A DNA stretch of 64,000 nt from a bacterium (lineage in GTDB: Bacteria > Patescibacteriota > Minisyncoccia > UBA6257 > GWB1-50-10), in contig NZBZ01000004.1 in the NCBI GenBank assembly GCA_002686365.1, positions 98,752 to 162,751 of the forward strand, read 5' to 3'. The position numbers and the translations under genes are program-made. The notes beneath the pieces were generated by a model. It did no database searches. It had not been told where the DNA came from and saw nothing but the letters and a program-made list of their open reading frames with translations. This document shows, piece by piece, positions 1 through 63,527 of the stretch (its first letter is position 1; each line of letters starts with the position of its first letter).

Positions 1-308
1 CAATTGCATCGGGTAAGATTGGAGAGTCGCAAGCGAGGGTTCTGTTGGCTATTAAGGATTTAGATAAGCAAAAGGCGGCATTTGAACAGCTTTTGAAGGG
101 CGGGATGAGTGTTCGGACTCTTAAGGAGAAGGTAAGGGGTTCTCAATCTGATCCAGAGAAGAGTTTTTATGAGAAACAGCTTGAAGAGAAGATTGGTGCT
201 CCGGTTCAGATTTCAAGGCGAGGTGATAAGGGGAAGGTTGTGATTAGGTTTTTTTCAGAAGATGAGATGGATGGGGTTTTTAAAAGGCTTTTGGGGGATA
301 TTGAGTAA
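1..308 (+). CDS. parB: Chromosome partitioning protein ParB, C-terminal part; 5' end lies outside the window
   Basis: The frame is open from position 3. The translation ...IASGKIGESQARVLLAIKDLDKQKAAFEQLLKGGMSVRTLKEKV... matches the ParB HTH and C-terminal dimerisation region (the conserved GHARALL-type segment). Confidence 0.55.
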   Translation, partial: IASGKIGESQARVLLAIKDLDKQKAAFEQLLKGGMSVRTLKEKVRGSQSDPEKSFYEKQLEEKIGAPVQISRRGDKGKVVIRFFSEDEMDGVFKRLLGDIE

Positions 309-392
309 CAGAAAAAACTTTTTTCACTCACAAGTCTTTACGTGTCACCATGTGGGCCTGTTCTAGAAAGTTTTTTCTGTCTATTTTAGGCA

Positions 393-2036: not shown

Positions 2037-2262
2037 GGATTCACTCTTTCCTTTCTCTCGATGACTTGTCTTTGTTCAAAGAGAACTTATCTCGCTCGGC
2101 AAAAAATCTTTTACGGAATACACCGAACTCGCTTCGCTCAGACAACGGCGTATTCCTAGATTTTTCTTCTCGCTCGGAGTTCTCTTGTTGACCAAAGATT
2201 TTTAGTCAGCTCTAAAAAAGAAAAAGTGAATTTATAGAGGAGATCTCATTGTCTCTGGGGTT
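2037..2262 (+). repeat. 3'-UTR repeat family B, copy 1; related copies at 23254-23440 and 61340-61560, and a fragment at 57916-58030
   Basis: A ~100-nt core (...CTCGCTCGGCAAAAAATCTTTTACGGAATACACCGAACTCGCTTCGCTCAGACAAC...TTTTTCTTCTCGCTCGG...) is about 80% identical to the segment after alaS and similar to the segment after groEL. Confidence 0.5.
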
Positions 2263-2282
2263 GGTGAGGGAGGTCTGAAGGT

Positions 2283-2306
2283 AGCCCCGCCTTGGCGGGG
2301 CTTTTG
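2283..2306 (+). terminator. Rho-independent terminator (AGCCCCGCC-TTGG-GGCGGGGCT plus T-run), preceded by a conserved GGGAGGTCTGAAGGT motif
   Basis: 9-bp GC stem followed by TTTTGTTT. The same hairpin type recurs at 23464-23490 and 48620-48648. Confidence 0.55.
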
Positions 2307-2317
2307 TTTAGTGTAAT

Positions 2318-3806: not shown

Positions 3807-5024
3807 GTGTATATGTTTAGGGAAAAAGGAGGTTTTGAGGACCCTGCGTCTGTAGAGGGTACAGCTTCGGAGCGCGAGGAGCACAAAGAGGAGGTTTTGT
3901 GGGAAGGAGATGATATTTTCGTGCGTTTCCCTGATCGTCCGGCGATTTCTCCAGATGATGGGTCTCACATTAAAATTGTTCCTTCTGGTCAGGGAAATCA
4001 TGACTGGCGCACTGCCTCTGTTCGAGAAGTTGTTCATGAGGGGTTGTATGCTCTTCCTGCGGCGCGTATGCTGGCAGATAGCGGTCGCACTTCTGATTTG
4101 TGGGCGAACATTCATTGGAATTCTTTGGCCTCTGATGGCGCGAATGTGTTTGGTCGTGCGCCAGCATCTGAAGCTGGGTGGGCAAAGCCGGTTGTTATAC
4201 AGGAAAAAGGCGCTGATTTTCCTGATAGCGATAGTGCGCGAGAGAATTTGAAAAAGTTTTCAGAGCGGTATTTTTCAAAATGGAGTCGACTTAAGGAAGA
4301 AGGTATTAGTTTATTTTCGGGCGGGGTGCGTGAGCTTGATTCTGATAGTTCTGAGTTTCAAAAAGAGGTGGAAAGTTATGCGGAACGTGAGCATCCTTGG
4401 CAGGAAACTGTGTTGTGGGTAAATGAAAAGTTCGTTCTGGTTTCAGTGGACAATCCTCATCTTTCCGGCACGCATTTAGTCATTCATCCTAGAGACGAGT
4501 ATTGGAGTAAGAAAGGAGATTTTCGAAAGCCATGGCAGACAGAGGAGGCGCGTAGCGGAGACTTGTCTTATATTGAGGGCTTTCTTGAGTCTCTTGCGAT
4601 TCTAAAGTCCGCCCAGAAAGTTCTTTCTGAGCAGGAGGATGTTCCTTTTATGAATTCTGAAATTCATTACAGCGGTAATTGGGCTGGTGATCTTCAGTCT
4701 CAGGAGAGAGGAGGGCAATTAGCAGAGGGAGAATTCGCTCAAGCACTTTCTGAATCTGATCCTCGAATTTCGGTTCGTGATCAGAAGCGAAGATATCAAC
4801 GCGGTAGGCCGGAAGAGTTTCAAACTTCTATGCATGGGCATTTGTATGCTACTGAAGACTCTGGGGAATTTGTTCATCTTCCTACTCGTCCAAAATCAGA
4901 GGCTCCGGAAGAATGGCAAGGAATATCTCTAGCTGATCAGGGAGATGTTTCTAAGATACAGAAAGTTATTCAAGAGCGTCTTGGCGCTGTATTGGAGCGT
5001 GAGGCGAAAGAGTCTATAGTGTAA
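3807..5024 (+). CDS. Hypothetical protein with two degenerate HIT-like half-domains (GalT/HIT-like fold suspected)
   Basis: Two segments, DIFVRFPDRPAISPDDGSHIKIVP and KFVLVSVDNPHLSGTHLVIHPRDEY, resemble the HIT/GalT pattern AF.D..P...GH.LVIPK. No intact HxHxH triad was found. Confidence 0.4.
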   Translation: MYMFREKGGFEDPASVEGTASEREEHKEEVLWEGDDIFVRFPDRPAISPDDGSHIKIVPSGQGNHDWRTASVREVVHEGLYALPAARMLADSGRTSDLWANIHWNSLASDGANVFGRAPASEAGWAKPVVIQEKGADFPDSDSARENLKKFSERYFSKWSRLKEEGISLFSGGVRELDSDSSEFQKEVESYAEREHPWQETVLWVNEKFVLVSVDNPHLSGTHLVIHPRDEYWSKKGDFRKPWQTEEARSGDLSYIEGFLESLAILKSAQKVLSEQEDVPFMNSEIHYSGNWAGDLQSQERGGQLAEGEFAQALSESDPRISVRDQKRRYQRGRPEEFQTSMHGHLYATEDSGEFVHLPTRPKSEAPEEWQGISLADQGDVSKIQKVIQERLGAVLEREAKESIV

Positions 5025-8457: not shown

Positions 8458-9720
8458 ATGCGGCAAACAGAACTTTTTACTAGAACTAGGAAAGAGGCGC
8501 CTAAAGATGAGGTGTCAGTAAATGCGCGGCTTTTAATGCGTGCTGGTTTTGTGAATAAGCTTATGGCTGGGGTATATTCCCTGCTTCCTTTGGGCTTGCG
8601 TGTGCATCAGAAGATAGAGAATATTATTCGTCGAGAGATGGATGCGATCGGGGGGCAGGAGCTTTTAATGCCTACGCTTCAGCCAAAGGCGAATTGGGAT
8701 AAGACAGACAGGTGGGAGACATATGACTCTCTCTTTCGATTTACGAGTCATTACACAAAGAATGAGTATGCTTTAGGTCCTACGCATGAGGAGGTGGTAA
8801 CGCCTCTGGTTCAGGATCAGAATCTCTCGTATAAGGATTTTCCTGTTTATGTATATCAGATTCAGACTAAGTTTCGGGATGAGCCAAGAGCAAAGTCCGG
8901 GCTTTTGAGGGGCAGAGAGTTTTCTATGAAGGATTTGTACTCATTTCATACGAATGAGAAGGACTTGGAGAAGTATTATGAGAAGGCAAGAGATGCGTAC
9001 TTTAAGATTTTTAAAGAGGTTGGACTTGGTGATGTGACGTACTTAACTTTTGCGTCAGGCGGGTCGTTTTCAAAGTACTCCCACGAGTTTCAGACAGTTA
9101 CAGATGCTGGAGAGGATATTATTTACTTGTGTAATAAGTGTAAGGTGGCAGTTAATAAGGAGATTATTCATGAGCAGAAGGACTGCCCAGAGTGCGGAGA
9201 GAAGAAGCTAAAAGAGGAGAAGGCAGTTGAAGTTGGAAATATATTTAAGTTAAAGACTAAGTATTCGTCTGCGTTTGGGTTGAAGTTTAAGGATGAGAAG
9301 GGAAAAGAGGGAGATGTAATAATGGGGTGTTATGGAATTGGGCTGACTCGGCTTTTGGGTACGGTTGTTGAGGCTCATTATGATAAGGATGGGATGATTT
9401 GGCCTGAGGCAGTTGCGCCATTTGCAGTACATCTTATTCGGCTTGGGATAGATTCTAAGGTAGTGAAGTTTGCAGATGATGTTTATAAAAAACTTGAGAA
9501 GAATAATGTTGAAGTTTTATATGATGACAGGGACGCGTCAGCTGGAGAGAAGTTTGCTGATTCAGATTTGATTGGGATTCCTTATCGGGTTGTGGTTAGT
9601 GAGAAGACCCTTCGACAGGCTCAGGGCAAGCTGGAAAAGAAGAAGGTTGAGTTAAAAAAGAGAAGTGAGAAGAAGGAGAAGTTGGTTGGGGTAGATGAGT
9701 TAATGAAGTTGGGGGCATAG
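8458..9720 (+). CDS. proS: Prolyl-tRNA synthetase, short form without the INS editing domain
   Basis: N-terminus MRQTELFTRTRKEAPKDEVSVNARLLMRAGFVNKLMAGVYSLLPLGLRVHQKIENIIRREMD matches bacterial ProRS. A zinc-ribbon CNKCK...CPECGEKK and a C-terminal anticodon-binding region are present. The track's GTG start at 8422 overlaps the upstream gene, so the ATG at 8458 is more likely. Confidence 0.8.
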   Translation: MRQTELFTRTRKEAPKDEVSVNARLLMRAGFVNKLMAGVYSLLPLGLRVHQKIENIIRREMDAIGGQELLMPTLQPKANWDKTDRWETYDSLFRFTSHYTKNEYALGPTHEEVVTPLVQDQNLSYKDFPVYVYQIQTKFRDEPRAKSGLLRGREFSMKDLYSFHTNEKDLEKYYEKARDAYFKIFKEVGLGDVTYLTFASGGSFSKYSHEFQTVTDAGEDIIYLCNKCKVAVNKEIIHEQKDCPECGEKKLKEEKAVEVGNIFKLKTKYSSAFGLKFKDEKGKEGDVIMGCYGIGLTRLLGTVVEAHYDKDGMIWPEAVAPFAVHLIRLGIDSKVVKFADDVYKKLEKNNVEVLYDDRDASAGEKFADSDLIGIPYRVVVSEKTLRQAQGKLEKKKVELKKRSEKKEKLVGVDELMKLGA

Positions 9721-9726
9721 GAAAGA

Positions 9727-9886
9727 TCTCTTTTTCTCGTTCGTAAGTCTCCACACATTAAAATTCTTTATTCGCTCATTACGGCAATTTGCCGCCCTGT
9801 TTCGCTTTGCTCCACGGGCACCCGGCAAATTGTCTATTCGCTCATAGAATTTAAGATGTGTTTCAACACACTCACTCTGAAAAAAA
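9727..9886 (+). repeat. Interspersed repeat family A, copy 1 (~160 bp); other copies at 48329-48485 and 63338-63495
   Basis: The copies are ~95% identical and each starts 1-9 nt after a stop codon (proS, uppS, and the hypothetical gene ending at 63336). The element carries a 12-bp inverted repeat, CGGCAATTTGCCG versus CGGCAAATTGCC, and an internal ATTCGCTCAT direct repeat. No ORF is conserved across the copies. Confidence 0.7.
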
Positions 9887-9957
9887 GTTCTTTCCTAAAG
9901 GGGAAGATGGTTTTTGTAATCTTCTGTGGGGAGGTGGTGGGAGGGCTGTTGGTGGCT

Positions 9958-9996
9958 CACTTCGTCCCGATTGGGGACTCGTGAGCTTTTTTATAT
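9958..9996 (+). terminator. Two-tier terminator hairpin GCTCAC-TTCG-TCCC...GGGAC-TCG-TGAGC plus T-run
   Basis: Followed by TTTTTTATAT. The equivalent hairpin at 63528-63570 has compensatory base changes in the inner stem (GTCCC/GGGAC versus TTCCG/CGGAA). Confidence 0.55.
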
Positions 9997-10037
9997 AAAA
10001 AAATACCCACCAAAGCGTGGGTGCTGGTGGGGTTGAG

Positions 10038-10385
10038 TCAGATGTGGAGGAGAATTGCTGCAGTACCGAGGAACGTGACGATGGCGCAGAAGATTGCGAG
10101 GCAGTTCATTGCTTGGGCAGTTCTCTTGCTCCAAGGTCTTCCTGCATCGTCGTCTATCTGTGCGAATATCCACACGTCCAGATTGAACAGGATGGTGCCG
10201 ATGGCGAACAAGAGTGCCGCCCCGATCCAGTTCGAGATCATGGCGTTTTCTTGTGCGCCTACCATGGCTCCTGAGAGACATATAAACGCTGTGATCAGAC
10301 TGACGAGGCCGGCAATGAAGGTTGCGTCGCGGCCACTGGTCTCGTGATTGCCACTTTTGTGTATTGCGGCAGCAGCGGCGGTCAT
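10038..10385 (-). CDS. Small membrane protein (115 aa); N-terminus paralogous to the 54-aa ORF at 10795-10959
   Basis: The N-terminus MTAAAAAIHKSGNHE... is followed by hydrophobic segments. The local GC content looks clearly higher than the genome background. Confidence 0.45.
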   Translation of the reverse strand: MTAAAAAIHKSGNHETSGRDATFIAGLVSLITAFICLSGAMVGAQENAMISNWIGAALLFAIGTILFNLDVWIFAQIDDDAGRPWSKRTAQAMNCLAIFCAIVTFLGTAAILLHI

Positions 10386-10433
10386 TGTGCGTTCCTTCTC
10401 GGTTAGGCGGCGGATGGCTTGTGTCCGTACGTA

Positions 10434-10751
10434 CTAGCCTCCGAAGATTAGGAAGTAGATGAGCCCTACGGCTCCGCAGAGCGCGTTGACGCCGAGGATC
10501 GTTGCAGCGTTGTAGAGTCTTCTGCGCATGTCGGGCTTTGGCTCGTTCTTTAGCCCTCCCATTCCTATCATCAGGATGAAAATGACACCGATGTAGAGCG
10601 TGAAGCCGGCGGAGTGATACCAGTGCCAGTTCGTGAGGCCTGGGGTTCCGCGTACGGCGAGTACGTTCGCCCAGAAGGAGAAGAATCCTGCAATGAGACC
10701 GAAGACAGTGTACGCGGAGAGCGAGAAGTTTCTTCGAAATGCGTCGGTCAT
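10434..10751 (-). CDS. Small membrane protein (105 aa)
   Basis: Three predicted TM segments (for example GLIAGFFSFWANVLAV and FTLYIGVIFILMIGMGGL). Same strand and same GC-rich block as its neighbours. Confidence 0.45.
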   Translation of the reverse strand: MTDAFRRNFSLSAYTVFGLIAGFFSFWANVLAVRGTPGLTNWHWYHSAGFTLYIGVIFILMIGMGGLKNEPKPDMRRRLYNAATILGVNALCGAVGLIYFLIFGG

Positions 10752-10794
10752 TGTCAGATCCCTTCGGGTTGCGGTGTGTGTGGGTGGTTTTGAG

Positions 10795-10959
10795 TTACGG
10801 GTTGAGGTAGATGTGGTAGAGAATTCCTGCAGTGCCTAGGATCGCGCTGCCCGCGTAGAAGGTTATGATGACTCCTGCGGTGATGTAGGTGATGAGGGCT
10901 ATGGCGCGATCGATGAGCCCATTGTTGCCACTCTTGTGTGTCGCTGCAGCAGCGGTCAT
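10795..10959 (-). CDS. Small membrane protein (54 aa), absent from the ORF track because it is under 60 aa
   Basis: Hand translation gives MTAAAATHKSGNNGLIDRAIALITYITAGVIITFYAGSAILGTAGILYHIYLNP. Its N-terminus is shared with the 115-aa ORF, and its start overlaps the upstream ORF's stop (ATGA). Confidence 0.4.
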   Translation of the reverse strand: MTAAAATHKSGNNGLIDRAIALITYITAGVIITFYAGSAILGTAGILYHIYLNP

Positions 10960-11153
10960 GGCGTGATCCTTTTAAGTGTTGTCGGACAGATGGGAACAAG
11001 TTTGAGTATTGTTATACGCAGCGCTATGGCGCCCACCATAACATCCAGTATGCTGTGAGAGTTGGCAACTCCGTATGCTGTGATCAGCAAGCTTGCGACA
11101 AAGAACAGCATTGTGAAGATGTATAGGGTGGACCACTTGACCTTTGTCTGCAT
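10956..11153 (-). CDS. Small membrane protein (65 aa), first gene of the - strand four-gene mini-operon
   Basis: MQTKVKWSTLYIFTMLFFVASLLITAYGVANSHSILDVMVGAIAL... is a hydrophobic helix. It is divergent from mreB. Confidence 0.35.
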   Translation of the reverse strand: MQTKVKWSTLYIFTMLFFVASLLITAYGVANSHSILDVMVGAIALRITILKLVPICPTTLKRITP

Positions 11154-11237
11154 CTACATGAAGTTCTTTGCCTCCAGGCCTTCAGTTTGGGTCGCTGAAA
11201 TTACTCTACATATTTTTGTTTTTAGTGTCAATTTTTA

Positions 11238-11266
11238 TTGATATCCTTTTTTTCTTGCAGTAGAAT
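11238..11266 (+). promoter_or_regulatory. Sigma-70-like promoter for mreB (-35 TTGATA, 17-nt spacer, -10 TAGAAT) with a near-leaderless start
   Basis: TTGATA at 11238-11243 and TAGAAT at 11261-11266. The mreB ATG at 11276 is only 9 nt after the -10 box. Confidence 0.4.
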
Positions 11267-11275
11267 CAGAGGACT

Positions 11276-21570: not shown

Positions 21571-23253
<1,683 letters not shown>

Positions 23254-23440
23254 TACTTTCTCTTTCCTCGTTTCGTGCGCTTCGCTCGAATTTTCTCATC
23301 TTTACTTGTCGTAAGAAATAACGAAATTTCGCGAACTCGCTTCGCTCAAACACCGCTCGATTTCTATTTCTTGATACTCCTCGTTCAGTGAGCATTCTCT
23401 CGCTACGCGATACTCAACAAAGGAAAGATAAAGTATCTTT
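23254..23440 (+). repeat. 3'-UTR repeat family B, copy after groEL
   Basis: ...CGCGAACTCGCTTCGCTCAAACACCGCTCGATTTCTATTTCTTGATAC... and ...CGCGATACTCAACAAAGGAAAG... are shared with the copies at 2037, 61340 and 57916. Confidence 0.45.
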
Positions 23441-23463: not shown

Positions 23464-23490
23464 AGCCCCGCCTTGGCGGGGTTTTTGGTT
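23464..23490 (+). terminator. Rho-independent terminator AGCCCCGCC-TTGG-CGGGGTTTTT
   Basis: Same hairpin family as at 2283 and 48620. Confidence 0.5.
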
Positions 23491-23562
23491 GTAAAAAAAA
23501 TGACCCTAGCATGGTGCGTAGGGTCTATATTGCGAGGCGGCATTGGGGGACTTGCTTGTCGG

Positions 23563-23952
23563 CTAGGAGGTCGCCGAGAGTTCCGGGTCCTCGGGTTCGT
23601 CATCGAGGAGCGCCATGCTAGCTGCTTGCGGGTCGAAGTGCTCGGGGAGCTTAGTCGTGTCACTATAGCTTGCCCCGAGAAGTTTCGCTCCTGCAAGGTC
23701 TGTCTTGCTAAGATCCGCCCCCCGAAGATCTGCTCCGTGAAGATTCGCGTCTCGGAGATTCGTTTCGAGAAGAGTCGCTCCTCGGAGACTTGCTCCGCGG
23801 AAATCTGCGCCTTGTAGGTTTGCCATGCTTAGGCTTGCCATGCGTAGGTCTGCCCCTGGCGCGTGTACTCCGGGTCCGAGAGCGAGGACGACGGTAACAG
23901 TGAGCCTGCCGTTCTCTTGGTTCAGGGTCGTGATCGTGCGGGGCTTGTGCAT
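23563..23952 (-). CDS. Pentapeptide-repeat protein (129 aa) in a GC-rich islet
   Basis: Tandem A(D/N)LxG pentapeptides (ANLQGADFRGASLRGATLLETNLRDANLHGADLRGADLSKTDLAGAKL). GC content looks far above the genome background. Confidence 0.6.
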   Translation of the reverse strand: MHKPRTITTLNQENGRLTVTVVLALGPGVHAPGADLRMASLSMANLQGADFRGASLRGATLLETNLRDANLHGADLRGADLSKTDLAGAKLLGASYSDTTKLPEHFDPQAASMALLDDEPEDPELSATS

Positions 23953-24155
23953 CTTGGACTCCTGTTTCAGGTTGTTTCTGGGGAGTGGTAGCGCGGGGTT
24001 GAAGAGGGGTTGGGCCTTGAGCTTCTTAGCTTGTTATGTTGTATGATATTTTTGTCTTTGTGTCAATGTTTTTTGATTTTGTCTGGCTTTTGGTTTTTTG
24101 CGCTAGTGGGGTATAATGCTAAAAAGGCCGGATTAGTTAAATATTAAGTATTTTT

Positions 24156-24734: not shown

Positions 24735-24775
24735 CTTCTAGCTTTTAGCTTATAGCTTCATTAGCTTATAGCTTT
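24724..24775 (+). repeat. Tandem TAGCTTN heptamer repeats (family D), seven units, overlapping the lemA stop codon
   Basis: TTAGCTTCTAGCTTCTAGCTTTTAGCTTATAGCTTCATTAGCTTATAGCTTTT. A 30-nt stretch is identical to the one after rpoD. Confidence 0.55.
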
Positions 24776-24823
24776 TATTTTTAGTAGATAATAGTTACAG
24801 ACTAAAGACTATTAGCCGCGTTA

Positions 24824-26449: not shown

Positions 26450-26517
26450 TGTATTGCGGGGGTGTTTAGTAGGTATGGTTCTTGGCAGTTTTTTGTTATT
26501 TTACTATTTTACGATTT

Positions 26518-26557
26518 ACGATGCAGTTATGTGACGGTCGTGCTATAATTGCATCGT
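26518..26557 (+). promoter_or_regulatory. Hairpin element E (arms ACGATGCA/TGCATCGT, inner ACGGTCGTG) overlapping a TATAAT (26544-26549) and the GTG start of the downstream gene
   Basis: It forms a direct repeat pair with 27085-27124 (~85% identical). The -10-like TATAAT is 6 nt before the start codon, so the transcript is likely leaderless. Confidence 0.4.
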
Positions 26558-27056
26558 GGGTGTTGCAGATGACATTTTAACAATACTTTTTAGCTATTCC
26601 GCTGGGTATAAGCGTCTGCGTCAATTGACGTATGGGGGCTCTCCTTATCAATCGTCAGATTCTCGAAGGAAGATTAGAGATGAAACTCTTCGTTCTACAC
26701 TTTCTCGAATGAGGAAGAATAAGCTTGTGTCCCGCAAGGGGGATGAATGGGTTATCACCGCGAAAGGCAAGGCTTTTTATCGTCGTCGTAGGGAAAAGCG
26801 GAAACTTGAAGAGATTTCTGATGAATTGCGAAGTAGAAAGAAGTCTGTGATTATTGCGTTTGATGTTCCAGAAGAAAGGCGTGTTATTCGCGCATGGTTG
26901 CGGAGAGAATTAGTATTTTTAGGATTTGAGCCTATTCAGAAGAGTGTTTGGTTTGGTCCGGGTCCTTTGCCCGAGATATTTATTCAAGAATTGGGTGATA
27001 GAGATCTTTTGGGCTGTTTAAAATTTTTTAGGGCGACTGAGGATGATGTTGTTTAA
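26556..27056 (+). CDS. Winged-helix + Cas2/PaaX-like domain protein (166 aa), paralog 1
   Basis: The N-terminal wHTH region is ...TLSRMRKNKLVSRKGDEWVITAKGKAF.... The C-terminus VIIAFDVPEERRVIRAWLRRELVFLGFEPIQKSVWFGP matches the Cas2 N-terminal strand pattern (hhhYDI...RR...L...G.R.Q.SVF) and the PaaX middle domain. 57% identity-level paralog at 50061-50546. Confidence 0.5.
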   Translation: MGVADDILTILFSYSAGYKRLRQLTYGGSPYQSSDSRRKIRDETLRSTLSRMRKNKLVSRKGDEWVITAKGKAFYRRRREKRKLEEISDELRSRKKSVIIAFDVPEERRVIRAWLRRELVFLGFEPIQKSVWFGPGPLPEIFIQELGDRDLLGCLKFFRATEDDVV

Positions 27057-27084
27057 ATATTGTTTAGTATTGTTTAGTGATTTT

Positions 27085-27124
27085 ACGATGCACTTTTAGC
27101 ACGACCGTGCTATAGGTGCATCGT
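27085..27124 (+). repeat. Hairpin element E, downstream copy (ACGATGCAC...ACGACCGTG...GTGCATCGT)
   Basis: A 9-bp outer stem plus a 6-bp inner stem. Direct repeat of 26518-26557. Confidence 0.4.
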
Positions 27125-27699
27125 TGGTTGGTTTTTGATTGATAGATTAATGCTTGAGGGTTTTGGGGATTTGCAGATTCGCGGATTTGCGGATTTATCT
27201 CATTGTTTGTATATTGTTTGTACGTTCTTTGACCTATGGAATGGAGAAAATGCGCTATGTCGTTAAGAAAAGGCGTCAGGCGGCAGGTTCGCAAGAGGCG
27301 CGCTTCTAAGGCGCGCAGAGAGGCTCTGGTTAATGAGCAGTTCTTAAGTCTAGTCGGTCGAATTCCAGGAGAAGGAGAATTGGATCGTCTTGCTGCTCAG
27401 ATATAATTCGGAGATGCTCAGCCCTTGTCTGAGGCATTGGGCTTTGTGGGCGCCTATGTGGTGGCAACTGATGATCGTGATGTCTGGGTAAGTGTCCGCT
27501 TTAATAGCGCCACCAGGCAGATCTTCGGTGTGTCGCGGCCGCCCTCTAATGAGCATCTTGACAGCTTGCACAATCTCAGTGCCTGTGGGGAGTCTTCTGG
27601 TTCTGATTGGGTTTCGTCGTAGACGTCCCGCATGCCTTTATGGATGCGGGACGTTGTCATGTTTAGATAATGCTTATAACTTGAGAAGTTTGGATTTTT

Positions 27700-27841: not shown

Positions 27842-27926
27842 GGAGGGATGCCGGAGTGGTCAAACGGAACGGCTTGGAAAGCCGTGGCCCTAACAGGCCC
27901 CGTGGGTTCGAATCCCACTCCCTCCG
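27842..27926 (+). tRNA. tRNA-Ser (anticodon GGA), long variable arm, no encoded CCA
   Basis: Acceptor stem GGAGGGA/TCCCTCC. Anticodon stem-loop ACGGC-TTGGAAA-GCCGT. Long variable arm. T-arm GTGGG-TTCGAAT-CCCAC. Discriminator G. Confidence 0.85.
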
Positions 27927-28014
27927 CAGAATGCTTCTCCAAGAGCCCCCATGGGGCTTATGGAGAAGCATAGTGTTGATGAAGTAGCGGGATTCGAAGG
28001 GTGTTTTTAGAAAG

Positions 28015-28046
28015 CAAACTGCTTTGCTTTCTAAAAAACCCGGGCT
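28015..28046. other. Perfect 14-bp-stem hairpin TTTTAGAAAGCAAA-CTGC-TTTGCTTTCTAAAA
   Basis: Perfect inverted repeat with a 4-nt loop, lying between the tRNA and repeat C. A/T-rich ends suggest a terminator or attachment-site-like element. Confidence 0.4.
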
Positions 28047-47607: not shown

Positions 47608-48327
47608 TTGAAATGGATAAATAATATGGAAAATGTTCCACAACATGTTGCTGCTATCCCTGATGGGAATAGGCGGTGGGCAAAGAAGCGGGGCCTTCCC
47701 GGTACTGCTGGCCATACAGAAGGGGTAAAGCGTTTTTATGATGTAATGGAGGAGGCGTTTGATAAGGGCGTCAAGTACTTTACGTTTTGGGGCGCATCAG
47801 AGAGTAATCTTACCAATCGTACAAAGGTAGAGGTGAAATTTTTGATGGATATTTTTCAAAATGAGATTTTGCGGCATTTTGATTCAAAGAAGTTTAAGGA
47901 GAATAAGATTCGGGTTCGGGTTCGCGGCAAGGGTGTGGAAATGATTGATAATCCAAAGCTTACTGAGACTGTGAAAAAGCTTGAGGAGGAGTCTGCGGAG
48001 TTTACAGATAAGAACTTAACAATTCTTTTTGGATATAGCGGGACTACAGAGATACGTGAGGCGATTTCTAAAATAAAGGAAGAGGATTTGGAAGTTACTG
48101 ATGAGAATATAAAGAAGTCTTTGTGGACTGGGGATTTGCCGCCAGTAGATTTTGTGATAAGAACTGGAATAGAAGGAGATCCTCATGTTTCTGCTGGATT
48201 TATGATGTGGCAGACAGCAGAGAGTCAGCTTTACTTTACAGAAATGTGCTGGCCTGATTTTGGAAAGAAGGAGCTTGCAAAGGTTTTGGAAGAGTATGGG
48301 GCAAGGGAGAGGAGGTTGGGGAAATAA
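47608..48327 (+). CDS. uppS: Undecaprenyl-diphosphate synthase
   Basis: HVAAIPDGNRRWAKKRGLP... is the canonical cis-prenyltransferase motif. Confidence 0.85.
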   Translation: MKWINNMENVPQHVAAIPDGNRRWAKKRGLPGTAGHTEGVKRFYDVMEEAFDKGVKYFTFWGASESNLTNRTKVEVKFLMDIFQNEILRHFDSKKFKENKIRVRVRGKGVEMIDNPKLTETVKKLEEESAEFTDKNLTILFGYSGTTEIREAISKIKEEDLEVTDENIKKSLWTGDLPPVDFVIRTGIEGDPHVSAGFMMWQTAESQLYFTEMCWPDFGKKELAKVLEEYGARERRLGK

Positions 48328-48328
48328 A

Positions 48329-48485
48329 ATCCTTTTTCTCGTTCGTAAGTCTCCACACATTAAAATTCTTTATTTGCTCATTACGGCAATTTGCCGCCCT
48401 GTTTCGCTTTGCTCCACGGGCACCCGGCAAATTGCCTATTCGCTCATAGAATTTAAGATGTGTTTCAACACACTCACTCTGAAAA
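48329..48485 (+). repeat. Interspersed repeat family A, copy 2
   Basis: Starts 2 nt after the uppS TAA; ~95% identical to copies 1 and 3. Confidence 0.7.
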
Positions 48486-48619
48486 ATAATTTTATTTTTC
48501 TATGGGAAGTCGTTCTAGGTGCTTTTTACAAAGTAACTTTTTTAAGTCGTCTCAAGAAAGAAAAGATGAATTGTGAGTAATAGAATTTTTCCTCATTCTG
48601 TAGTGGGATGGAGGAGGTC

Positions 48620-57915: not shown

Positions 57916-58076
57916 GCCTTTTTCTTTGTTTTCGTCGTTTAATATTTCATTTCCTCACTTTGCGATACTCAAAGACGAAAAGGATGTGTGCTTCCTAGCC
58001 TTTTCATTTTTTGAGAGGTTGGGGGGTGGATGGTTATTGACACTGGGCCTGTAGAGTGTAGGATATAGGCCATTAT

Positions 58077-59473: not shown

Positions 59474-61339
59474 ATGACCATTCATGAGGTTCGAAAAAAG
59501 TACCTCGAGTTTTTTGAGAGTAGGGGGCATGTTGTTATTTCTTCAGCCTCTCTTTATCCAGAGAATGATCCAACAACTTTGTTTACGGGTTCTGGCATGC
59601 AGTCTATGATTCCGTATCTGCTTGGCGAGGAGTATCCAAAGGGCAATAGAGTTGCTGATTCGCAAAAGTGTTTTCGAACACAGGACATAGAAGAAGTGGG
59701 CGATAATCGGCATACGACATATTTTGAGATGCTTGGGAACTGGTCTTTGGGCGACTATTTTAAGAAGGAACAGATTCCGTGGGTGTTTGAATTTTATACA
59801 AAGGTTCTTGGACTTGATCCTAAGCGGCTTTACGTTACGGTATTTTGTGGAAATGAGGATATAGGTATTCCAAAAGATGAAGAGAGCGTGAATATTTGGA
59901 AGGAGGTGTTTTCAAATGTTGGGATTGAGGCAAAGGATGTGGATAATTCAGAAGATAGGGGCATGTGTGATGGGAGAATTTTTTATTATGATGAGACTAA
60001 AAATTGGTGGTCACGCGCAGGAGCTCCTCAAGATATGCCGGAGGGAGAGTTGGGTGGGCCGGATTCGGAAGTGTTTTGGGATTTTGACCCTGATGAGTTA
60101 AAGAAAACTCATGAAAATTCAGAGTTTTCAAAAAAACCATGCCATGTGAATTGTGATTGCGGGAGATTTTTGGAGATTGGGAATAGCGTGTTTATGGAGT
60201 ATCAGAAGACTGCGGATGGATTTGAGCAGTTGAAGCAGAAGAATGTAGACTTTGGCGGAGGGCTTGAGAGAATGGTTGCGGCAGCTTTAGATGAGCAGGA
60301 CATGTTAAGGATTCCCGTGTTTACATCTTCTCGAAGAGTTTTAGAGTCTTTGTCTGGAAAAAAGTATGGTGATGACAAGGAAGAGACTCGCGCGTTTCGG
60401 GTTATTCTGGATCATTTGCGCGCCGCATCATTTCTTATGGGTGATGAGTGTGGAGTAGAGCCGTCGAATACTGATCAGGGATATGTTGTTCGTCGGCTTG
60501 TTAGAAGAGCTATTCGGTATGGAAGGCAGCTTGGGATAAAGGAGGGTCCTTGGACGCAAAAGCTTGTAGAGGCAGTTGCAGGCGAGTATGAGGAGTCGTA
60601 TCCGGAAATTCGTAAGAACGAGAAGCGAATTTCAAAATGGATGCAGGACGAGGAGGAGAAATTTATGAAGACTGTTGAGAGGGGACTGAAGGAACTGCAG
60701 AAGATGGAAAAGCCGACTGGCAAAGAGCTTTTTGTTCTTTATTCCACCTATGGATTTCCTCTTGAGATGAGCTTTGAGGAGCTTGGGACTTTGGCAAGTG
60801 ATCAAGAGGTGCTTACAGAGGAGTTTCATAAGGAGGCAAAGAAGCATGGTGAGCTTTCGCGGACTGCTTCAGCAGGGAAGTTTACCGGAGGATTGGCAGA
60901 TCAGTCAGAGGAGGTTATTCGTCTTCATACTGCAACGCATCTGCTGAATGAGGCTCTTCGGCAGAAAGTTGATCCTAGTATTACGCAGAAGGGATCAAAT
61001 ATAACATCAGAGCGGCTTCGATTTGACTTTAGTTTTGACAGGAAACTCACAGATAAGGAGGTTGCAGATGTTGAAGAGCTTGTGAATAAAAAGATAGGGG
61101 AGGGGATTTCAGTTGAGCGAAAGGAGATGCCTTTACAGAAGGCATTGGATTCCGGAGCACAGGCTGAGTTTGGAGCAAAATATCCTGATACGGTTTCCGT
61201 ATATTCTATTGGAGATTTTTCTAAGGAGCTTTGCGCAGGTCCGCATGTTTCAAGTACTTCGGAAATTGGGAAGTTTAAGGTTTTAAAGCAGGAGGCAGTT
61301 GCAGCAGGAGTGCGGAGGATTAAGGCTACGGTTGAGTGA
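59474..61339 (+). CDS. alaS: Alanyl-tRNA synthetase, short form lacking the C-terminal C-Ala domain
   Basis: The N-terminal catalytic core (...FFESRGHVVISSASLYPENDPTTLFTGSGMQ...WSLGDYFK...) and the editing-domain HxxxH (HTATHLLNEAL) plus CAGPHV are present. 621 aa. Confidence 0.85.
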   Translation: MTIHEVRKKYLEFFESRGHVVISSASLYPENDPTTLFTGSGMQSMIPYLLGEEYPKGNRVADSQKCFRTQDIEEVGDNRHTTYFEMLGNWSLGDYFKKEQIPWVFEFYTKVLGLDPKRLYVTVFCGNEDIGIPKDEESVNIWKEVFSNVGIEAKDVDNSEDRGMCDGRIFYYDETKNWWSRAGAPQDMPEGELGGPDSEVFWDFDPDELKKTHENSEFSKKPCHVNCDCGRFLEIGNSVFMEYQKTADGFEQLKQKNVDFGGGLERMVAAALDEQDMLRIPVFTSSRRVLESLSGKKYGDDKEETRAFRVILDHLRAASFLMGDECGVEPSNTDQGYVVRRLVRRAIRYGRQLGIKEGPWTQKLVEAVAGEYEESYPEIRKNEKRISKWMQDEEEKFMKTVERGLKELQKMEKPTGKELFVLYSTYGFPLEMSFEELGTLASDQEVLTEEFHKEAKKHGELSRTASAGKFTGGLADQSEEVIRLHTATHLLNEALRQKVDPSITQKGSNITSERLRFDFSFDRKLTDKEVADVEELVNKKIGEGISVERKEMPLQKALDSGAQAEFGAKYPDTVSVYSIGDFSKELCAGPHVSSTSEIGKFKVLKQEAVAAGVRRIKATVE

Positions 61340-61560
61340 TTTCACCCCTTCTTTCTTTCGTCTCCTTTTCCGTTCCTTAGATAACACAATTTTCACTCGT
61401 CAGAAAAAACTTACGGAAAAGAGTGAACTCGCTACGCTCAAACAACACTCTTTTCCTATTTTTTCTTTCTCGCTCAACGTGTTCTTTACGAAGGAACTCT
61501 TTTAAGTCGTCGAGAAGAAAGAAGCGGTGAAGTTAAGGAGGAAAATGTTTGGTTGAGGTT
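61340..61560 (+). repeat. 3'-UTR repeat family B, copy after alaS
   Basis: ...CACTCGTCAGAAAAAACTTACGGAAAAGAGTGAACTCGCTACGCTCAAACAAC...TTTTTTCTTTCTCGCTCAAC... Confidence 0.5.
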
Positions 61561-61608: not shown

Positions 61609-63336
61609 ATGGCGAAAGCAGGTTCAACAAAGAAGCTTTTTTTGGAGGCAGAGGATGATATAGATGAAGCATTGGAGAGGATTTCCGCGTTTGAAGGGAA
61701 GAATGTTGTTTTGAATATTCCAAAGGGTTCTGTGCTCGGAGGTTCTGTTAAGAACTTCCGTTTTTTGCGTAAGAAGACGGATGAGCTTGAGAAGAATTTG
61801 GTTATTGAGTCTGTTGATGATCATGTGCTTGAGCTTGCAGAGGTTGCTGATATTGATGCTGTAAATCCCGTGTTTCGTACAAAAGGCAAGGCAGTTGTTG
61901 ATATTGTTCCGGGCGGTTCTGGAGAGTCTCGTTCAGGGCGCAGTAAAAAGACTGAGAAAATATCTCTTCAGCAAGTAAAAGAAGAGGAGGTTGAAGAGGA
62001 AGAGGGTGAAGAAGAGCCTGACGCAGAGCCAGAGGAGAAAGCAGAGGATGTGGTTCAGGATGAGATTCCGCAAAAGGTAGTTCATTTTTGGGAGAGAGAT
62101 CGTGCAGCAAAGGCGCCTCAGCCCGCGAAGATGGGTTTTCTTTCGTTTTTGCAGAGAGGTAAGAAGTCGAAGGGCGGCATTCAGCTTCCTTCTGCGCGTT
62201 TTGTCCGGTTTGCTGTAGTTTTTCTTGTGATTATTGCTTTAGGTTGGGGACTTGCGACAATTCTTCCTAAGGCAACTATTACACTTGCGCTTAAGCGATA
62301 CCCAGTATCTTTTGTTGAGACGGTGAAGGTTGATACAAAGACTCCTCTGCCAAGCTTTGCCGGAGAGACGGTCTTTTTACCCGGAGAGCTTCTTACTGCA
62401 GTAAAAAATCTTGAGATGAGTTTTCCTGCTACTGGAGAGGATGAGGTAGAGCGGAAAGCAACAGGGAAGATTAAAATTTTTAATGAGTTTAGTTCAAAAT
62501 CTCAGGCTTTGGTTGCGCGTACTAGATTTGAGACGCCGGATGGGCTTGTATACCGATTGTTTGAGCAGGTCACTGTGCCTGGGGCAGATGTTGTAGAAGG
62601 GGAGATAGAGGCATCATCTATTGAGGTTGAGGTATATGCTGATGAAGCAGGAGAGGAGTATAACATTGGGCCGGTTCCGAAGTTTACTATTCCCGGATTT
62701 AAGGGAGGACCTCGGTACGATGGATTTTATGCCGCGTCCGTCGGGTCCATGAAGGGAGGATTTGTAGGAGTTCAGAGAGTTCCAACAGATGCGGACTTAG
62801 AGGTGGCTACAGAGACAATTACGGACAGCTTGCTTGATTCTCTTGAGGGAGAGCTTGCTATTTTAATGAGTGACAGCTTTAAAGTTTTTGATGACACAAC
62901 ATTGTTTCAGATAGTTCGGGAGGAGGTTTATCCGCCTTCCCCCGGAGAGGAGATGTTTAGCGTATTTGTTGAGGGGCAGCTTCAGCAGTTTGTGTTTCGG
63001 GAGGATGATTTGGAGGAGGCTCTTGTTGGCCGCGCTAAGGAGAGTTTAACAGAGGATGTGAGTTTTAATGTTGATGATTTTTCCGTGGAGTTTACAGACC
63101 TTTCAGTTGATTTGTCAGCTGAACGTTTACAGTTTGGAGTTGAGGGAGAGGCTGTGTTTATCGCGGACATTGATTCTTCTGGGCTTACAGCAGAGCTTTT
63201 AGGTAAGAGTTCTGAAGATGTGAAAAAGGAGATTTTTAAACTTCCTGGGCTTGATAGGGCACGTGTGTCGCTTTGGCCATTCTGGGTAAAGAAGGTTCCT
63301 GGGAAAGAAGGGAAGGTGACGATTGAGGTAGAATAA
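61609..63336 (+). CDS. Hypothetical membrane protein with a poly-Glu acidic segment
   Basis: EEEVEEEEGEEEPDAEPEEKAED, then the TM segment FVRFAVVFLVIIALGWGLATIL, then a large C-terminal domain. Confidence 0.45.
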   Translation: MAKAGSTKKLFLEAEDDIDEALERISAFEGKNVVLNIPKGSVLGGSVKNFRFLRKKTDELEKNLVIESVDDHVLELAEVADIDAVNPVFRTKGKAVVDIVPGGSGESRSGRSKKTEKISLQQVKEEEVEEEEGEEEPDAEPEEKAEDVVQDEIPQKVVHFWERDRAAKAPQPAKMGFLSFLQRGKKSKGGIQLPSARFVRFAVVFLVIIALGWGLATILPKATITLALKRYPVSFVETVKVDTKTPLPSFAGETVFLPGELLTAVKNLEMSFPATGEDEVERKATGKIKIFNEFSSKSQALVARTRFETPDGLVYRLFEQVTVPGADVVEGEIEASSIEVEVYADEAGEEYNIGPVPKFTIPGFKGGPRYDGFYAASVGSMKGGFVGVQRVPTDADLEVATETITDSLLDSLEGELAILMSDSFKVFDDTTLFQIVREEVYPPSPGEEMFSVFVEGQLQQFVFREDDLEEALVGRAKESLTEDVSFNVDDFSVEFTDLSVDLSAERLQFGVEGEAVFIADIDSSGLTAELLGKSSEDVKKEIFKLPGLDRARVSLWPFWVKKVPGKEGKVTIEVE

Positions 63337-63337
63337 A

Positions 63338-63495
63338 CTCCTTTTTCTCGTTCGTAAGTCTCCACACATTAAAATTCTTTATTCACTCATTACGGCAATT
63401 TGCCGCCCTGTTTCGCTTTGCTTCACGGGCACCCGGCAAATTGCCTATTCGCTCATAGAATTTAAGATGTGCTCCAACACACTCACTCTGAAAAA
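63338..63495 (+). repeat. Interspersed repeat family A, copy 3
   Basis: Starts 2 nt after the TAA at 63334-63336. Confidence 0.7.
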
Positions 63496-63527
63496 GGAGT
63501 TTATTCTTATGGGTTTATGGGAGGTCT

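What the first reader, a model, noticed from the sequence alone, without database searches (positions are those of the whole stretch)
2037..2262. Second 3'-UTR repeat family (B) after the FAD oxidase, groEL, alaS and rpoD genes
Segments at 2037-2262, 23254-23440, 61340-61560 and 57916-58030 share a ~100-nt core (CTCGCTCGGCAAAAAATCTTTTACGGAA...GAACTCGCTTCGCTCAGACAAC...TTTTTCTTCTCGCTCGG) plus a CT-rich leader. All sit between a stop codon and a terminator. The host genes are highly expressed housekeeping genes, which would fit a role in mRNA stability or as 3'-UTR-derived sRNAs.
Basis: seen in the sequence. Interest (0 to 1): 0.5.

Follow-up and report, generated by a model that had tools for sequence, protein, structure and literature searches.

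The report
Mobile hairpin repeats behind stop codons
Three of the four segments are complete copies, and one a remnant, of a ~200-base hairpin-forming repeat that begins at the stop codon of unrelated genes in a marine candidate-phyla-radiation bacterium; its conserved tip also occurs in multi-copy intergenic repeats of Pasteurellaceae, Bacteroidota and Lachnospiraceae, so it looks like a widespread, apparently undescribed palindromic repeat element rather than a dedicated 3'-UTR regulator.

Summary
The similarity is real. B1 (2037-2233), B2 (23253-23436) and B3 (61337-61535) share a 94-nt core at 62-71% identity (shuffles reach at most 56%) and a 20-nt tip motif with no chance matches. The fourth segment is only a remnant of a 3' half.

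Each full copy is a ~190-nt imperfect hairpin ("rod"). The "CT-rich leader" is its 5' arm. The rod starts at or inside the stop codon.

The tip module, ACGGAA-P1-GAACTCG-minihairpin-CTCARACA-P1', recurs with covarying stems in Pasteurellaceae (many copies per genome), Bacteroidota, Lachnospiraceae and other Patescibacteria. There it lies in either orientation, beside unrelated genes, with filled and empty orthologous sites. Rfam 15 has no matching family, and sequence-string searches of the literature found nothing.

The complementary strand folds better than the sense strand: it has tandem G·A pairs and a GCGNAGC mini-hairpin tip.

Best reading: a REP/ERIC/MITE-like palindromic repeat family that turns over between sites and is co-transcribed here as a 3'-UTR hairpin. 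A dedicated regulatory role is not supported. How the element moves and what recognises it are unknown.

The parts
2037..2233 (+). B1 rod: a 197-nt imperfect hairpin starting directly after the TAA (2034-2036) of the FAD-linked oxidase gene. Tip core at 2113-2156. The identical 9-mer CTCGCTCGG lies on both arms (2091-2099 and 2169-2177).
   Evidence: (67.3 bits)
23253..23436 (+). B2 rod: a 184-nt hairpin starting at the third base of the groEL stop codon (23251-23253). Tip core at about 23321-23364.
   Evidence: (59.8 bits)
61337..61535 (+). B3 rod: a 199-nt hairpin. The alaS stop codon UGA (61337-61339) is paired in the basal helix (UGAUUUCACC / GGUGAAGUUA). Tip core at about 61413-61456.
   Evidence: (74.8 bits)
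57916..58030 (+). B4: a remnant resembling the 3' half of a B2-like rod plus the GGTTGG tract. It has no tip core and lies behind rpoD.
9718..9897 (+). The stop codon TAG (9718-9720) begins TAGGAAAGA, which is complementary to TCTTTCCTA (9889-9897). TTCGCTCA lies on both arms.
48318..48501 (+). A2 rod behind uppS. The stop codon TAA (48325-48327) is paired in the basal helix. 98.7% identical to A1 over 155 nt.
63330..63507 (+). A3 rod. An 18-bp perfect basal helix, AGAATAAACTCCTTTTTC / GAAAAAGGAGTTTATTCT, includes the stop codon TAA (63334-63336).
48510..48600 (+). Orphan B3-like 3' arm directly after A2 (81% identical to 61470-61511).
   Evidence: (D19)
2269..2309 (+). Pre-terminator motif GGAGGTCTGAAGGTAGC followed by an intrinsic terminator hairpin and T-run (2284-2309) downstream of B1. 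The same motif precedes the terminators after A1 (9940-9956), A2 (48613-48629) and A3 (63520-63536).
   Evidence: (D8, D11)
23465..23486 (+). Intrinsic terminator (GCCCCGCC TT GGCGGGG + T-run) downstream of B2.

Best explanation
The segments are copies of a modular palindromic intergenic repeat of the same general kind as REP/REPIN, ERIC, Correia and MITE elements.

Structure. Each copy is a ~190-nt rod of nested helices. The helices are separated by symmetric 'loops' that carry the same word, YTCGCTCR, on both arms. The rod is capped by a conserved tip: P1 stem, 5-nt strand AACTC, a mini-hairpin, 7-8-nt strand TCARACA, then P1'.

Distribution. The tip is shared with multi-copy intergenic elements in at least four bacterial phyla.

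In this genome. The rods sit with their first base at or inside the stop codon, ahead of the terminator. They are therefore transcribed as part of the 3' UTR, where they must form a very long hairpin.

Shown: the repeat family, its architecture, its homology across phyla, its turnover between sites, the covariation of its stems, and the better fold of the complementary strand.

Inferred: the element spreads as a selfish or commensal unit through a folded single-stranded intermediate recognised at the conserved asymmetric tip loop. Basal complementarity to the gene end arises by fold-back template switching at the hairpin (palindrome growth) or by selection for a longer stem. Any effect on mRNA, as a 3' exonuclease barrier or an RNase III target, is a by-product, as for REP and ERIC, and not the reason the element exists.
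For: 1. Recent duplication within the genome. A1 and A2 are 98.7% identical over 155 nt, and A3 is 94% identical, behind three unrelated genes.
2. Turnover between sites. The alaS 3' gap is 83-126 nt and lacks the element in three relatives. An 84%-identical B3-like rod sits behind the next gene in L003 (a related one in L004), although alaS third-codon positions are only 51% identical.
3. Remnants and mosaics: B4, and the orphan arm at 48510-48600.
4. A genome scan with the tip pattern gave 62 loci. About 50 of them are structured copies, in isolates of Aggregatibacter, Avibacterium, Gallibacterium, Phocaeicola, Sphingobacterium and Blautia and in Patescibacteria MAGs. In the metagenome scan 105 of 122 matches were structured.
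5. Stems covary. There are 27 distinct P1 strands; own-partner pairing is 10.65 of 11 against 7.99 of 11 with other copies' partners. On the model alignment 87% of cells pair against 68% when shuffled, 15 of 16 pairs change on both sides, and slid controls give 34-64%.
6. Orientation relative to flanking genes is mixed outside the window: Pasteurellaceae 13 '--', 8 '++', 3 '+-'.
7. Flanking genes are functionally unrelated and no shared neighbouring gene exists.
8. Orthologous filled and empty sites occur in sister Aggregatibacter species.
9. Copies cluster with other repeats in Sphingobacterium.
10. Inverted repeats that overlap the stop codon are specific to these elements, not a general feature of genes here.
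Against: - No direct target-site duplication was found. The flanks are inverted, not direct.
- No transposase or other shared gene lies near any copy. The source genome outside this contig could not be searched.
- The conserved part is the centre of the hairpin, not its ends, which is the opposite of classical MITEs.
- A survey of MITEs found that clusters rarely cross genus boundaries: 14 clusters at class or phylum level (PMC11602168). Conservation of a MITE-like element across phyla is therefore unusual and may mean a host factor constrains the tip.
- All six full copies in this window share one orientation and abut stop codons, which also fits an RNA-level role.
- B3 and L003 are 84% identical against 51% at synonymous sites. 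That could reflect purifying selection rather than recent movement.
Confidence: 0.55

Rival explanations
1. Dedicated cis-acting 3'-UTR RNA element. The sense-strand hairpin, anchored on the stop codon, stabilises the upstream mRNA against 3' exonucleases, or is processed into a 3'-UTR-derived sRNA whose pyrimidine loops (CUCGCUCA) are binding sites.
For: - All six full rods in the window are on the coding strand and start 0-3 nt from, or include, the stop codon.
- B1, B2 and A1-A3 lie upstream of intrinsic terminators.
- The same stop-codon abutment is seen in another Patescibacteria genome (L030) and at several Pasteurellaceae loci, where the stop lies 87-95 nt before the core.
- The stems covary.
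- B3 and L003 are 84% identical although neutral sites are near saturation.
Against: - The element is not kept at orthologous genes: it is absent behind alaS in three relatives.
- In other genomes the same element is often antisense to both neighbouring genes or sits in divergent promoter regions.
- The mRNA-sense strand is the poorer folder by 10-16 kcal/mol in every window copy.
- Host genes have no common function.
- No transcript evidence is available.
Confidence: 0.2
2. A functional structured nucleic-acid module that acts on the complementary strand, as single-stranded DNA or as antisense RNA. For example, an SSB-resistant hairpin serving as a priming or initiation signal, or as a recognition site for a conserved host enzyme. 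The multiple copies would then be functional sites rather than parasites.
For: - The complementary strand folds better in every group. Window copies give -54 to -72 against -44 to -58 kcal/mol. Pasteurellaceae have 170 G·U pairs on the complement against 73 on the sense strand.
- The 'loop' word on both arms reads UGAGCGAG on the complement. Paired against itself this gives two tandem G·A pairs in 5'-YGAR-3' context around a GC core (read from the sequence).
- Minimal tips read GCGAAGC, GCGTAGC, GCGCAGC or GCGTCAGC on the complement in 26 of 26 genome-scan copies and 48 of 52 metagenome copies. That is the GCGNAGC/GCGNNAGC 'mini-hairpin DNA' consensus, reported at phage G4 and ssiA priming origins and as a poor SSB binder (PMC13037366).
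- The asymmetric tip loop is conserved across four phyla.
Against: - Orientation relative to genes is mixed, and its relation to local GC skew is inconclusive because many loci are orthologous duplicates.
- Filled and empty orthologous sites and remnants argue against essential sites.
- In this window the complement is the template strand of the genes, which is not the strand expected to be exposed as lagging-strand template if genes run with replication.
- No partner protein is known.
Confidence: 0.15
3. Independent local palindromes produced by fold-back template switching, with no common descent or mobility. Alternatively, mere CT/A-rich low-complexity similarity.
For: The 3' flank complements the unique gene end in each copy. 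Lachnospiraceae copies have arms of more than 150 nt that are almost perfectly complementary, at -180 to -196 kcal/mol. Both fit palindrome growth.
Against: - The non-palindromic tip and loop words are shared at sequence level: 0 chance matches expected, 60-79 bits, cores 62-71% identical against at most 56% in shuffles.
- Whole rods are 84-98.7% identical at unrelated sites.
- Template switching can explain growth of the arms but not the shared core.
Confidence: 0.04

Closest known systems
REP / REPIN elements mobilised by RAYT (TnpA-REP) transposases
   Same: Multi-copy extragenic palindromes that fold as hairpins in single strands. They often lie just downstream of stop codons and are co-transcribed. 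They persist at orthologous sites yet show insertion polymorphism. No transposase lies within the element. The proteobacterial copies carry a 5' hairpin whose stem ends in CTAC...GTAG.
   Different: REPs are 20-40 nt, and REPINs about 70-110 nt, with the arms conserved and the loop variable. Here the centre is conserved and the arms vary. REP families are lineage-specific, whereas this tip is shared across four phyla. No GTAG or CGTC tag is evident in the window copies. No RAYT gene could be looked for in the rest of the genome.
ERIC/IRU, Correia (CREE), BOX/RUP and other bacterial MITE-like repeats
   Same: Imperfect palindromes of 100-200 nt in transcribed intergenic regions, in either orientation, forming long RNA hairpins that can alter mRNA stability or be cut by RNase III (from established knowledge; review PMC3184786). 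Modular, mosaic and truncated copies occur.
   Different: No sequence similarity: a distant BLAST of the Aggregatibacter copy against 5,426 E. coli genomes found nothing. No terminal inverted repeats matching an IS and no TA or other direct target duplication were seen. Conservation across phyla is atypical for MITEs (PMC11602168).
Integron attC sites
   Same: They sit directly after the stop codon of the upstream gene. They are imperfect palindromes whose structure rather than stem sequence is conserved, are recognised as folded single-stranded DNA with strand choice set by asymmetric unpaired bases, and have a highly variable terminal structure.
   Different: No R''/R' core sites (RYYYAAC / GTTRRRY) at the base. 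The hosts are core housekeeping genes, not cassettes. No integrase or cassette array is present. Here the conserved part is apical, not basal.
Mini-hairpin DNA (GCGNAGC) at single-strand initiation signals (phage G4 ori-c, RSF1010 ssiA)
   Same: The complement of the rod tip matches the GCGNAGC/GCGNNAGC consensus in nearly all minimal tips (PMC13037366). It sits on a long hairpin containing purine-purine mismatches.
   Different: Those signals are single sites in phage or plasmid origins, not dispersed chromosomal repeats. No priming function has been tested here.

Membership tests
Any Rfam 15 RNA family | Match to a curated covariance model at or near its gathering score | tested here: not met
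   Window at gathering and at E<=5: only 2 tRNAs and chance-level hits; the rods matched nothing except RsmY-like terminator noise. Homologous copies in 21 other loci also matched nothing.
Classical MITE | Direct target-site duplication flanking the element | tested here: not met
   The flanks of A1-A3, B1 and B3 are inverted complements of each other (for example AGAATAAA...TTTATTCT), not direct repeats. No duplication was visible at the Aggregatibacter filled/empty site, though divergence blurs the ends.
Classical MITE | Terminal inverted repeats matching those of an autonomous IS with a transposase | tested here: inconclusive
   The arms are complementary along their whole length but differ between copies. 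No transposase-like or other shared gene lies within 2.5 kb of copies in four phyla. Whole genomes were not searchable.
Classical MITE / mobile repeat in general | Multiple near-identical copies at unrelated sites and presence/absence at orthologous sites | tested here: met
   A1/A2 98.7%, A3 94%. B3 and the L003 copy are 84% identical at non-orthologous sites; alaS sites are empty in L003, L004 and L006. Aggregatibacter L010 is filled where L054 is empty.
REP/REPIN-RAYT | GTAG (or CGTC) tetranucleotide tag at one end of a 20-40-nt palindrome | tested here: inconclusive
   The proteobacterial 5' module CTACTTTTCTTTGC-loop-GCAAAGAAAAGTAG has CTAC/GTAG inside the stem. The module is absent from the window. 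CTCGTC words occur in some loops but not as an end tag.
REP/REPIN-RAYT | A single-copy RAYT gene in the same genome, flanked by the repeats | not testable with these tools
   Only one ~64-kb contig of the source genome is available.
3'-UTR regulatory element / 3'-UTR-derived sRNA | Retained behind the same gene in related genomes | tested here: not met
   Absent behind alaS in L003, L004 and L006 (72-76% AlaS identity), where the intergenic gap is 83-126 nt against 269 nt here.
3'-UTR regulatory element / 3'-UTR-derived sRNA | Consistent sense orientation with respect to the upstream gene | tested here: inconclusive
   6 of 6 in the window, but nearly all genes there are on the + strand. Orientation is mixed in other Patescibacteria and in Pasteurellaceae.
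3'-UTR regulatory element / 3'-UTR-derived sRNA | Defined transcript 3' ends or a processed stable RNA | not testable with these tools
   No transcriptome data. The A. actinomycetemcomitans sRNA survey does not mention repeats, and no Aa sRNA family in Rfam overlaps the element.
Integron attC | R''/R' core sites, a neighbouring integrase and a cassette array | tested here: not met
   No RYYYAAC...GTTRRRY at the rod bases. Hosts are GroEL, AlaS, sigma-70 and similar genes.
Intrinsic terminator | GC-rich hairpin immediately followed by a U-run | tested here: not met
   The rods are AT-rich, about 190 nt long, and not followed by a U-run. Separate canonical terminators lie 35-50 nt downstream of B1 and B2.

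The most novel reading that the evidence does not exclude
The tip module (P1, AACUC, a GCNNNGC mini-hairpin of variable length, UCARACA, P1') and the self-pairing loop words are conserved across Patescibacteria, Pseudomonadota, Bacteroidota and Bacillota because a still-unidentified, widely distributed machinery recognises the folded single strand, most plausibly the complementary strand with its G·A-rich helices and GCGNAGC tip. That machinery could be an unknown hairpin-specific recombinase or nickase, or a replication or repair enzyme. The rods would then represent a new class of structure-defined mobile or functional DNA/RNA elements. Their habit of starting on the stop codon and copying the gene end into their 3' flank would reveal how they insert or grow.
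Probability: 0.25. Interest if true: 0.8.

Novelty: new variant of a known kind. Interest (0 to 1): 0.55.

Why it matters
If the reading is right, an abundant repeat present in cultivable, well-studied bacteria (Aggregatibacter actinomycetemcomitans, Blautia, Phocaeicola, Sphingobacterium) as well as in uncultivated Patescibacteria has gone unnamed. It matches no Rfam family.

Its conserved centre and variable arms invert the usual logic of MITEs and REPs. That points to recognition of a folded single strand by something shared across phyla. Because tractable hosts carry it, the partner, the strand that matters and the effect on neighbouring mRNAs can all be tested directly.

For genome annotation of candidate-phyla-radiation bacteria, it explains most of the unusually long 3' intergenic gaps in this window. 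It also warns against reading covariation in such hairpins as proof of an RNA function, because palindromes can keep their arms complementary at the DNA level.

Tried and rejected
- Rfam at gathering and at permissive E-values, on the window and on homologous loci: nothing.
- Exact-sequence searches of the paper library for the tip and for the proteobacterial 5' module: no paper.
- Keyword searches for Pasteurellaceae or CPR repeats: nothing relevant.
- Exact look-up of the GroEL protein: not on record. AlaS worked instead.
- Search for a shared neighbouring gene (transposase, reverse transcriptase, integrase): none.
- E. coli genomes: no homologue. Viral contigs: only two Pasteurellaceae prophage-flank copies.
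- Hypothesis that stop codons are generally buried in hairpins in this genome: rejected. Over 61 genes the mean inverted-repeat length is 6.0 nt, against 5.3 nt for the control.
- Family A as a clear homologue of the tip model: only marginal, 10-12 bits. It is grouped with B by architecture and shared loop words, not by a significant score.
- Local GC skew as a proxy for replication strand: 86 to 43 in favour of the sense strand on the G-rich strand, but dominated by repeated sampling of the same loci, so inconclusive.
- A promoter for an antisense transcript, and small ORFs after the rods: inspected by eye only, nothing consistent, not pursued.
- boxA, K-turn, T-loop and parS resemblances: considered from memory and dropped for lack of a consistent match.

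Full report
**1. What is in the sequence**

The segments at 2037-2262, 23254-23440 and 61340-61560 are related.
- They share the 20-nt word GAACTCGCT[T/A]CGCTCA[A/G]ACA. There are three matches with at most one mismatch each, against none expected in 100 shuffles.
- Their 94-nt cores are 62-71% identical, against a shuffle mean of 49% and a maximum of 56%.
- A covariance model of the core scores them at 60-75 bits and finds nothing comparable elsewhere in the window.

The fourth segment (57916-58030) has no core. It resembles only the 3' part of B2 plus a GGTTGG tract (local score 26.5, null maximum 20). It is a remnant.

Pfam and an AlaS homology search confirm the host genes: FAD-linked oxidase, GroEL, sigma-70 and AlaS.

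**2. Anatomy**

Each full copy folds as one long imperfect hairpin:
- B1, 2037-2233
- B2, 23253-23436
- B3, 61337-61535

The stems differ between copies but stay complementary. For example, next to the tip:
- B1: CGGAAUACACCG / CGGCGUAUUCC
- B2: CGAAAUUUCGCG / CGCUCGAUUUC
- B3: GGAAAAGAGUG / CACUCUUUUCC

The helices are interrupted by symmetric "loops" that carry the same word on both arms. In B1 this is CTCGCTCGG at 2091 and 2169. The tip reads CUCG-CUUCG-CUCA.

The rod begins at the stop codon. UGA is fully paired in B3, the last base of UAA is paired in B2, and the stem starts at the next base in B1.

**3.

The 177-nt repeats at 9721, 48323 and 63332 (D1) are also rods. They carry TTCGCTCA on both arms, a tip UUCGCUUUGCUCC, and the same UUACGG...CCUA frame around the inner stem. 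The tip model detects them only marginally, at 10-12 bits.

A1 and A2 are 98.7% identical over 155 nt.

Beyond the shared core, each copy's 3' flank is the reverse complement of that gene's own end, stop codon included:
- A3: AGAATAAACTCCTTTTTC / GAAAAAGGAGTTTATTCT (18 bp)
- A1: TAGGAAAGA / TCTTTCCTA
- A2: AAATAAAAT / ATTTTATTT

These were found. Such inverted repeats over the stop codon are not a general property of the 61 genes tested (mean 6.0 nt against 5.3 nt for a control anchor). They belong to these elements, plus one more hairpin at 306-385.

A B3-like orphan 3' arm follows A2 (48510-48600, D19).

Four of the rods are followed by GGAGGTCTGWWGGTAGC and then an intrinsic terminator.

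**4. Source and relatives**

AlaS is 100% identical to a protein on ENA and Tara marine-metagenome contigs. The next relatives, at 72-76% identity, are unnamed; named hits at about 60% are Patescibacteria (Uhr-, Moran-, Pace- and Falkowbacteria).

In three relatives the gap behind alaS is only 83-126 nt and carries no B element.

Two of them carry a B3-like rod behind the next gene, which is the position occupied by A3 in the window.

The L003 rod is 84% identical to B3 over 194 nt. The alaS coding sequences are 73.5% identical, and only 51% at third codon positions. In L003 and L004 the tip holds an extra GC hairpin between GAACTCG and CTCAAACA.

So whole rods change place or turn over, and they are far better conserved than neutral sites.

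**5. The tip is not confined to this lineage**

Scanning one genome per species with ACGGAA-N6-GAACTCG-N3-33-CTCARACA gave 62 loci. About 11 are unstructured matches inside coding sequence. The rest have a complementary P1 and a P2 hairpin. They come from:
- Pasteurellaceae: Aggregatibacter kilianii, A. actinomycetemcomitans and A. segnis, Avibacterium, Gallibacterium, Lonepinella and Conservatibacter, often with several copies per genome
- Bacteroidota: Phocaeicola, Parabacteroides, Bacteroides, Sphingobacterium, Chitinophaga
- Lachnospiraceae: Blautia
- a Pseudomonadales MAG
- other Patescibacteria

The letters in the search pattern are invariant by construction. Three things were not imposed:
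- the complementarity of P1: 27 distinct strands; own-partner pairing 10.65 of 11 against 7.99 of 11
- the variable P2 hairpin: more than 25 different inserts
- the recurrent UUYCUA after P1'

On a model-guided alignment of 72 hits, 87.4% of cells pair against 68.2% after shuffling. Fifteen of 16 pairs change on both sides, and slid controls give 34-64%. That alignment is fitted to the model, and many rows are related.

**6. Behaviour in other genomes**

- Orientation relative to the flanking genes is mixed. Pasteurellaceae: 13 antisense to both neighbours, 8 sense, 3 between convergent genes. Other Patescibacteria show both orientations.
- Neighbouring genes are unrelated housekeeping genes (asd, nrdD, purM-like, transketolase, ABC transporters). 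No gene family recurs next to the element across phyla.
- One orthologous intergenic region is filled in A. kilianii and empty in A. actinomycetemcomitans. The copy behind nrdD is shared by several species.
- Lachnospiraceae copies have arms of more than 150 nt that are almost perfectly complementary, at -180 to -196 kcal/mol.
- Sphingobacterium has three copies in a 2.4-kb repeat-rich spacer.
- Proteobacterial copies carry an additional 5' module, CTACTTTTCTTTGC-loop-GCAAAGAAAAGTAG followed by GCAAAAGAAAG. That module alone occurs at 37 or more places per Paraburkholderia megaplasmid/chromid record (40, the reporting limit, in three records), there followed by other long hairpins.
- Rfam has no family for any of these. 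Two sequence-string searches of the paper library returned nothing.

**7. Which strand folds**

In every group the complementary strand is the better folder. Window copies give -54 to -72 against -44 to -58 kcal/mol. Pasteurellaceae have 170 G·U pairs on the complement against 73 on the sense strand.

Reading the sequence explains this. On the complement the loop word is UGAGCGAG on both arms. Paired against itself it gives U·G, G·A, A·G, G-C, C-G, G·A, A·G, G·U. That is two tandem G·A pairs in 5'-YGAR-3' context, which from established nucleic-acid thermodynamics is the favourable context.

This also explains why the same word must sit on both arms.

On the complement the minimal tips read GCGAAGC, GCGTAGC, GCGCAGC or GCGTCAGC, in 26 of 26 and 48 of 52 copies. 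This is the GCGNAGC/GCGNNAGC "mini-hairpin DNA" consensus, known from phage G4 and ssiA priming sites and reported to bind SSB poorly (PMC13037366).

These counts are not phylogenetically independent. A few longer tips carry a UUCG tetraloop on the sense strand. The strand question therefore remains open.

**8. Interpretation**

The evidence best fits a palindromic repeat family that duplicates and turns over. It is of the same kind as REP/REPIN, ERIC, Correia and MITE elements. In this compact genome it lodges exactly behind stop codons and is therefore transcribed as a 3'-UTR hairpin.

That it spreads through a folded single-stranded intermediate recognised at the asymmetric tip loop is inference, by analogy with IS200/IS605, RAYT-REP and integron attC systems.

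The 8-18-nt complementarity to the unique gene end is most economically explained by fold-back template switching at a very stable hairpin, which extends palindromes outward. Selection for a longer stem cannot be excluded. The same DNA-level process could keep the arms complementary, so covariation here is weaker evidence for an RNA function than it would normally be.

As the element's purpose it is contradicted by the lack of retention at orthologous genes, the mixed orientation elsewhere and the poorer fold of the sense strand.

**9. What does not fit the mobile-repeat reading**

- There is no direct target duplication and no identified transposase.
- The conserved part is the centre, not the ends.
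- The core is conserved across four phyla, although MITE clusters rarely cross even genus boundaries (PMC11602168).

These points keep open a more novel reading: that the tip is the recognition site of a widespread, unidentified machinery. I put that at about 0.25.

**10. Limits**

- Only one ~64-kb contig of the source genome was available.
- The collection scans used a pattern derived from B copies, so the real diversity and the true conservation of the tip letters are unknown.
- Model E-values are rough.
- No transcript or replication-direction data were available.
- Local GC skew as a proxy was inconclusive.

Noticed in passing
It should be treated together with B.
   Followed up: yes
window 2269-2285, 9940-9956, 48613-48629, 63520-63536 (also L003 ~4055-4075, L004 ~4228-4250 and ~4370-4395): A conserved motif, GGAGGTCTGWWGGTAGC, sits immediately 5' of the intrinsic terminator hairpins that follow the rods (4 matches, 0.31 expected). 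It is also present in two relatives. It may be part of a terminator cassette that travels with the rods.
   Followed up: partly
window 306-385: Another hairpin starts on a stop codon (gene 3-308): a 14-bp perfect basal helix ACAGAAAAAACTTT/AAAGTTTTTTCTGT and the word TTTTCACTC, which also occurs in B3's 5' arm. z-score -3.7. Possibly a degenerate rod without the tip.
   Followed up: partly
window 24739-24799, 57877-57914, 59377-59430: Short stop-rich mini-repeats, TAGCTT(A/T)TAGCTT..., lie directly after the stop codons of three genes. Relatives have analogous AGGACAT or CTAAAT repeats behind alaS.
   Followed up: no
window 27842-31566: Direct repeats of ~118 nt (28083-28200 and 31469-31566, 96% identical, containing the palindrome ATTCAACAATTCCATGGAATTGTTGAAT) lie 3.4 kb apart, next to tRNA-Ser (27842-27927). 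They bracket the first part of a low-GC stretch (35-37% from 28 to 34 kb, against about 43% elsewhere). That first part encodes a PEP-utilising enzyme (PPDK_N domain) and an unknown protein. It looks like an integrated island with att-like repeats.
   Followed up: partly
window 26515-26561 and 27082-27128; 26709-27056 and 50061-50546: Two paralogous PaaX_M (Cas2-like domain) genes. A 79%-identical palindromic upstream element (TTTACGATGCA...TGCATCGT) lies upstream of the first gene (26515-26561) and recurs just downstream of it (27082-27128).
   Followed up: no
window 9990-11275 and 23500-24155: Two GC-rich (~50%), strongly structured stretches downstream of A1 and B2, with only short minus-strand ORFs. 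One encodes a pentapeptide-repeat protein (23563-23952). There were no Rfam hits and their nature is unclear.
   Followed up: partly
L069 (Paraburkholderia largidicola plasmid PPGU16_p1) 1994-2045 and two more copies; L070 (Pasteurella multocida): The 5' module of the proteobacterial copies (CCTACTTTTCTTTGC-loop-GCAAAGAAAAGTAGGCAAAAGAAAG) occurs at 37 or more places per Paraburkholderia megaplasmid/chromid record (40, the reporting limit, in three). It is followed by long hairpins with entirely different tips. This suggests a larger modular superfamily. Sub-threshold Rfam Bp1_Cand684 hits lie next to it.
   Followed up: partly
L006 2047-2120 and 3873-3965: A relative with 72% AlaS identity has different, nearly perfect long hairpins right after the same two stop codons. 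They share the loop word CTTAGTCTC and may be another rod family occupying the same niche.
   Followed up: no
L026 (Sphingobacterium sp. MYb382) 1000-2650: A 2.4-kb ORF-free spacer upstream of an rRNA operon is packed with three rod copies interleaved with another repeat (TTGTCATGCTGAGCTTGTCGAAGCATC...).
   Followed up: no
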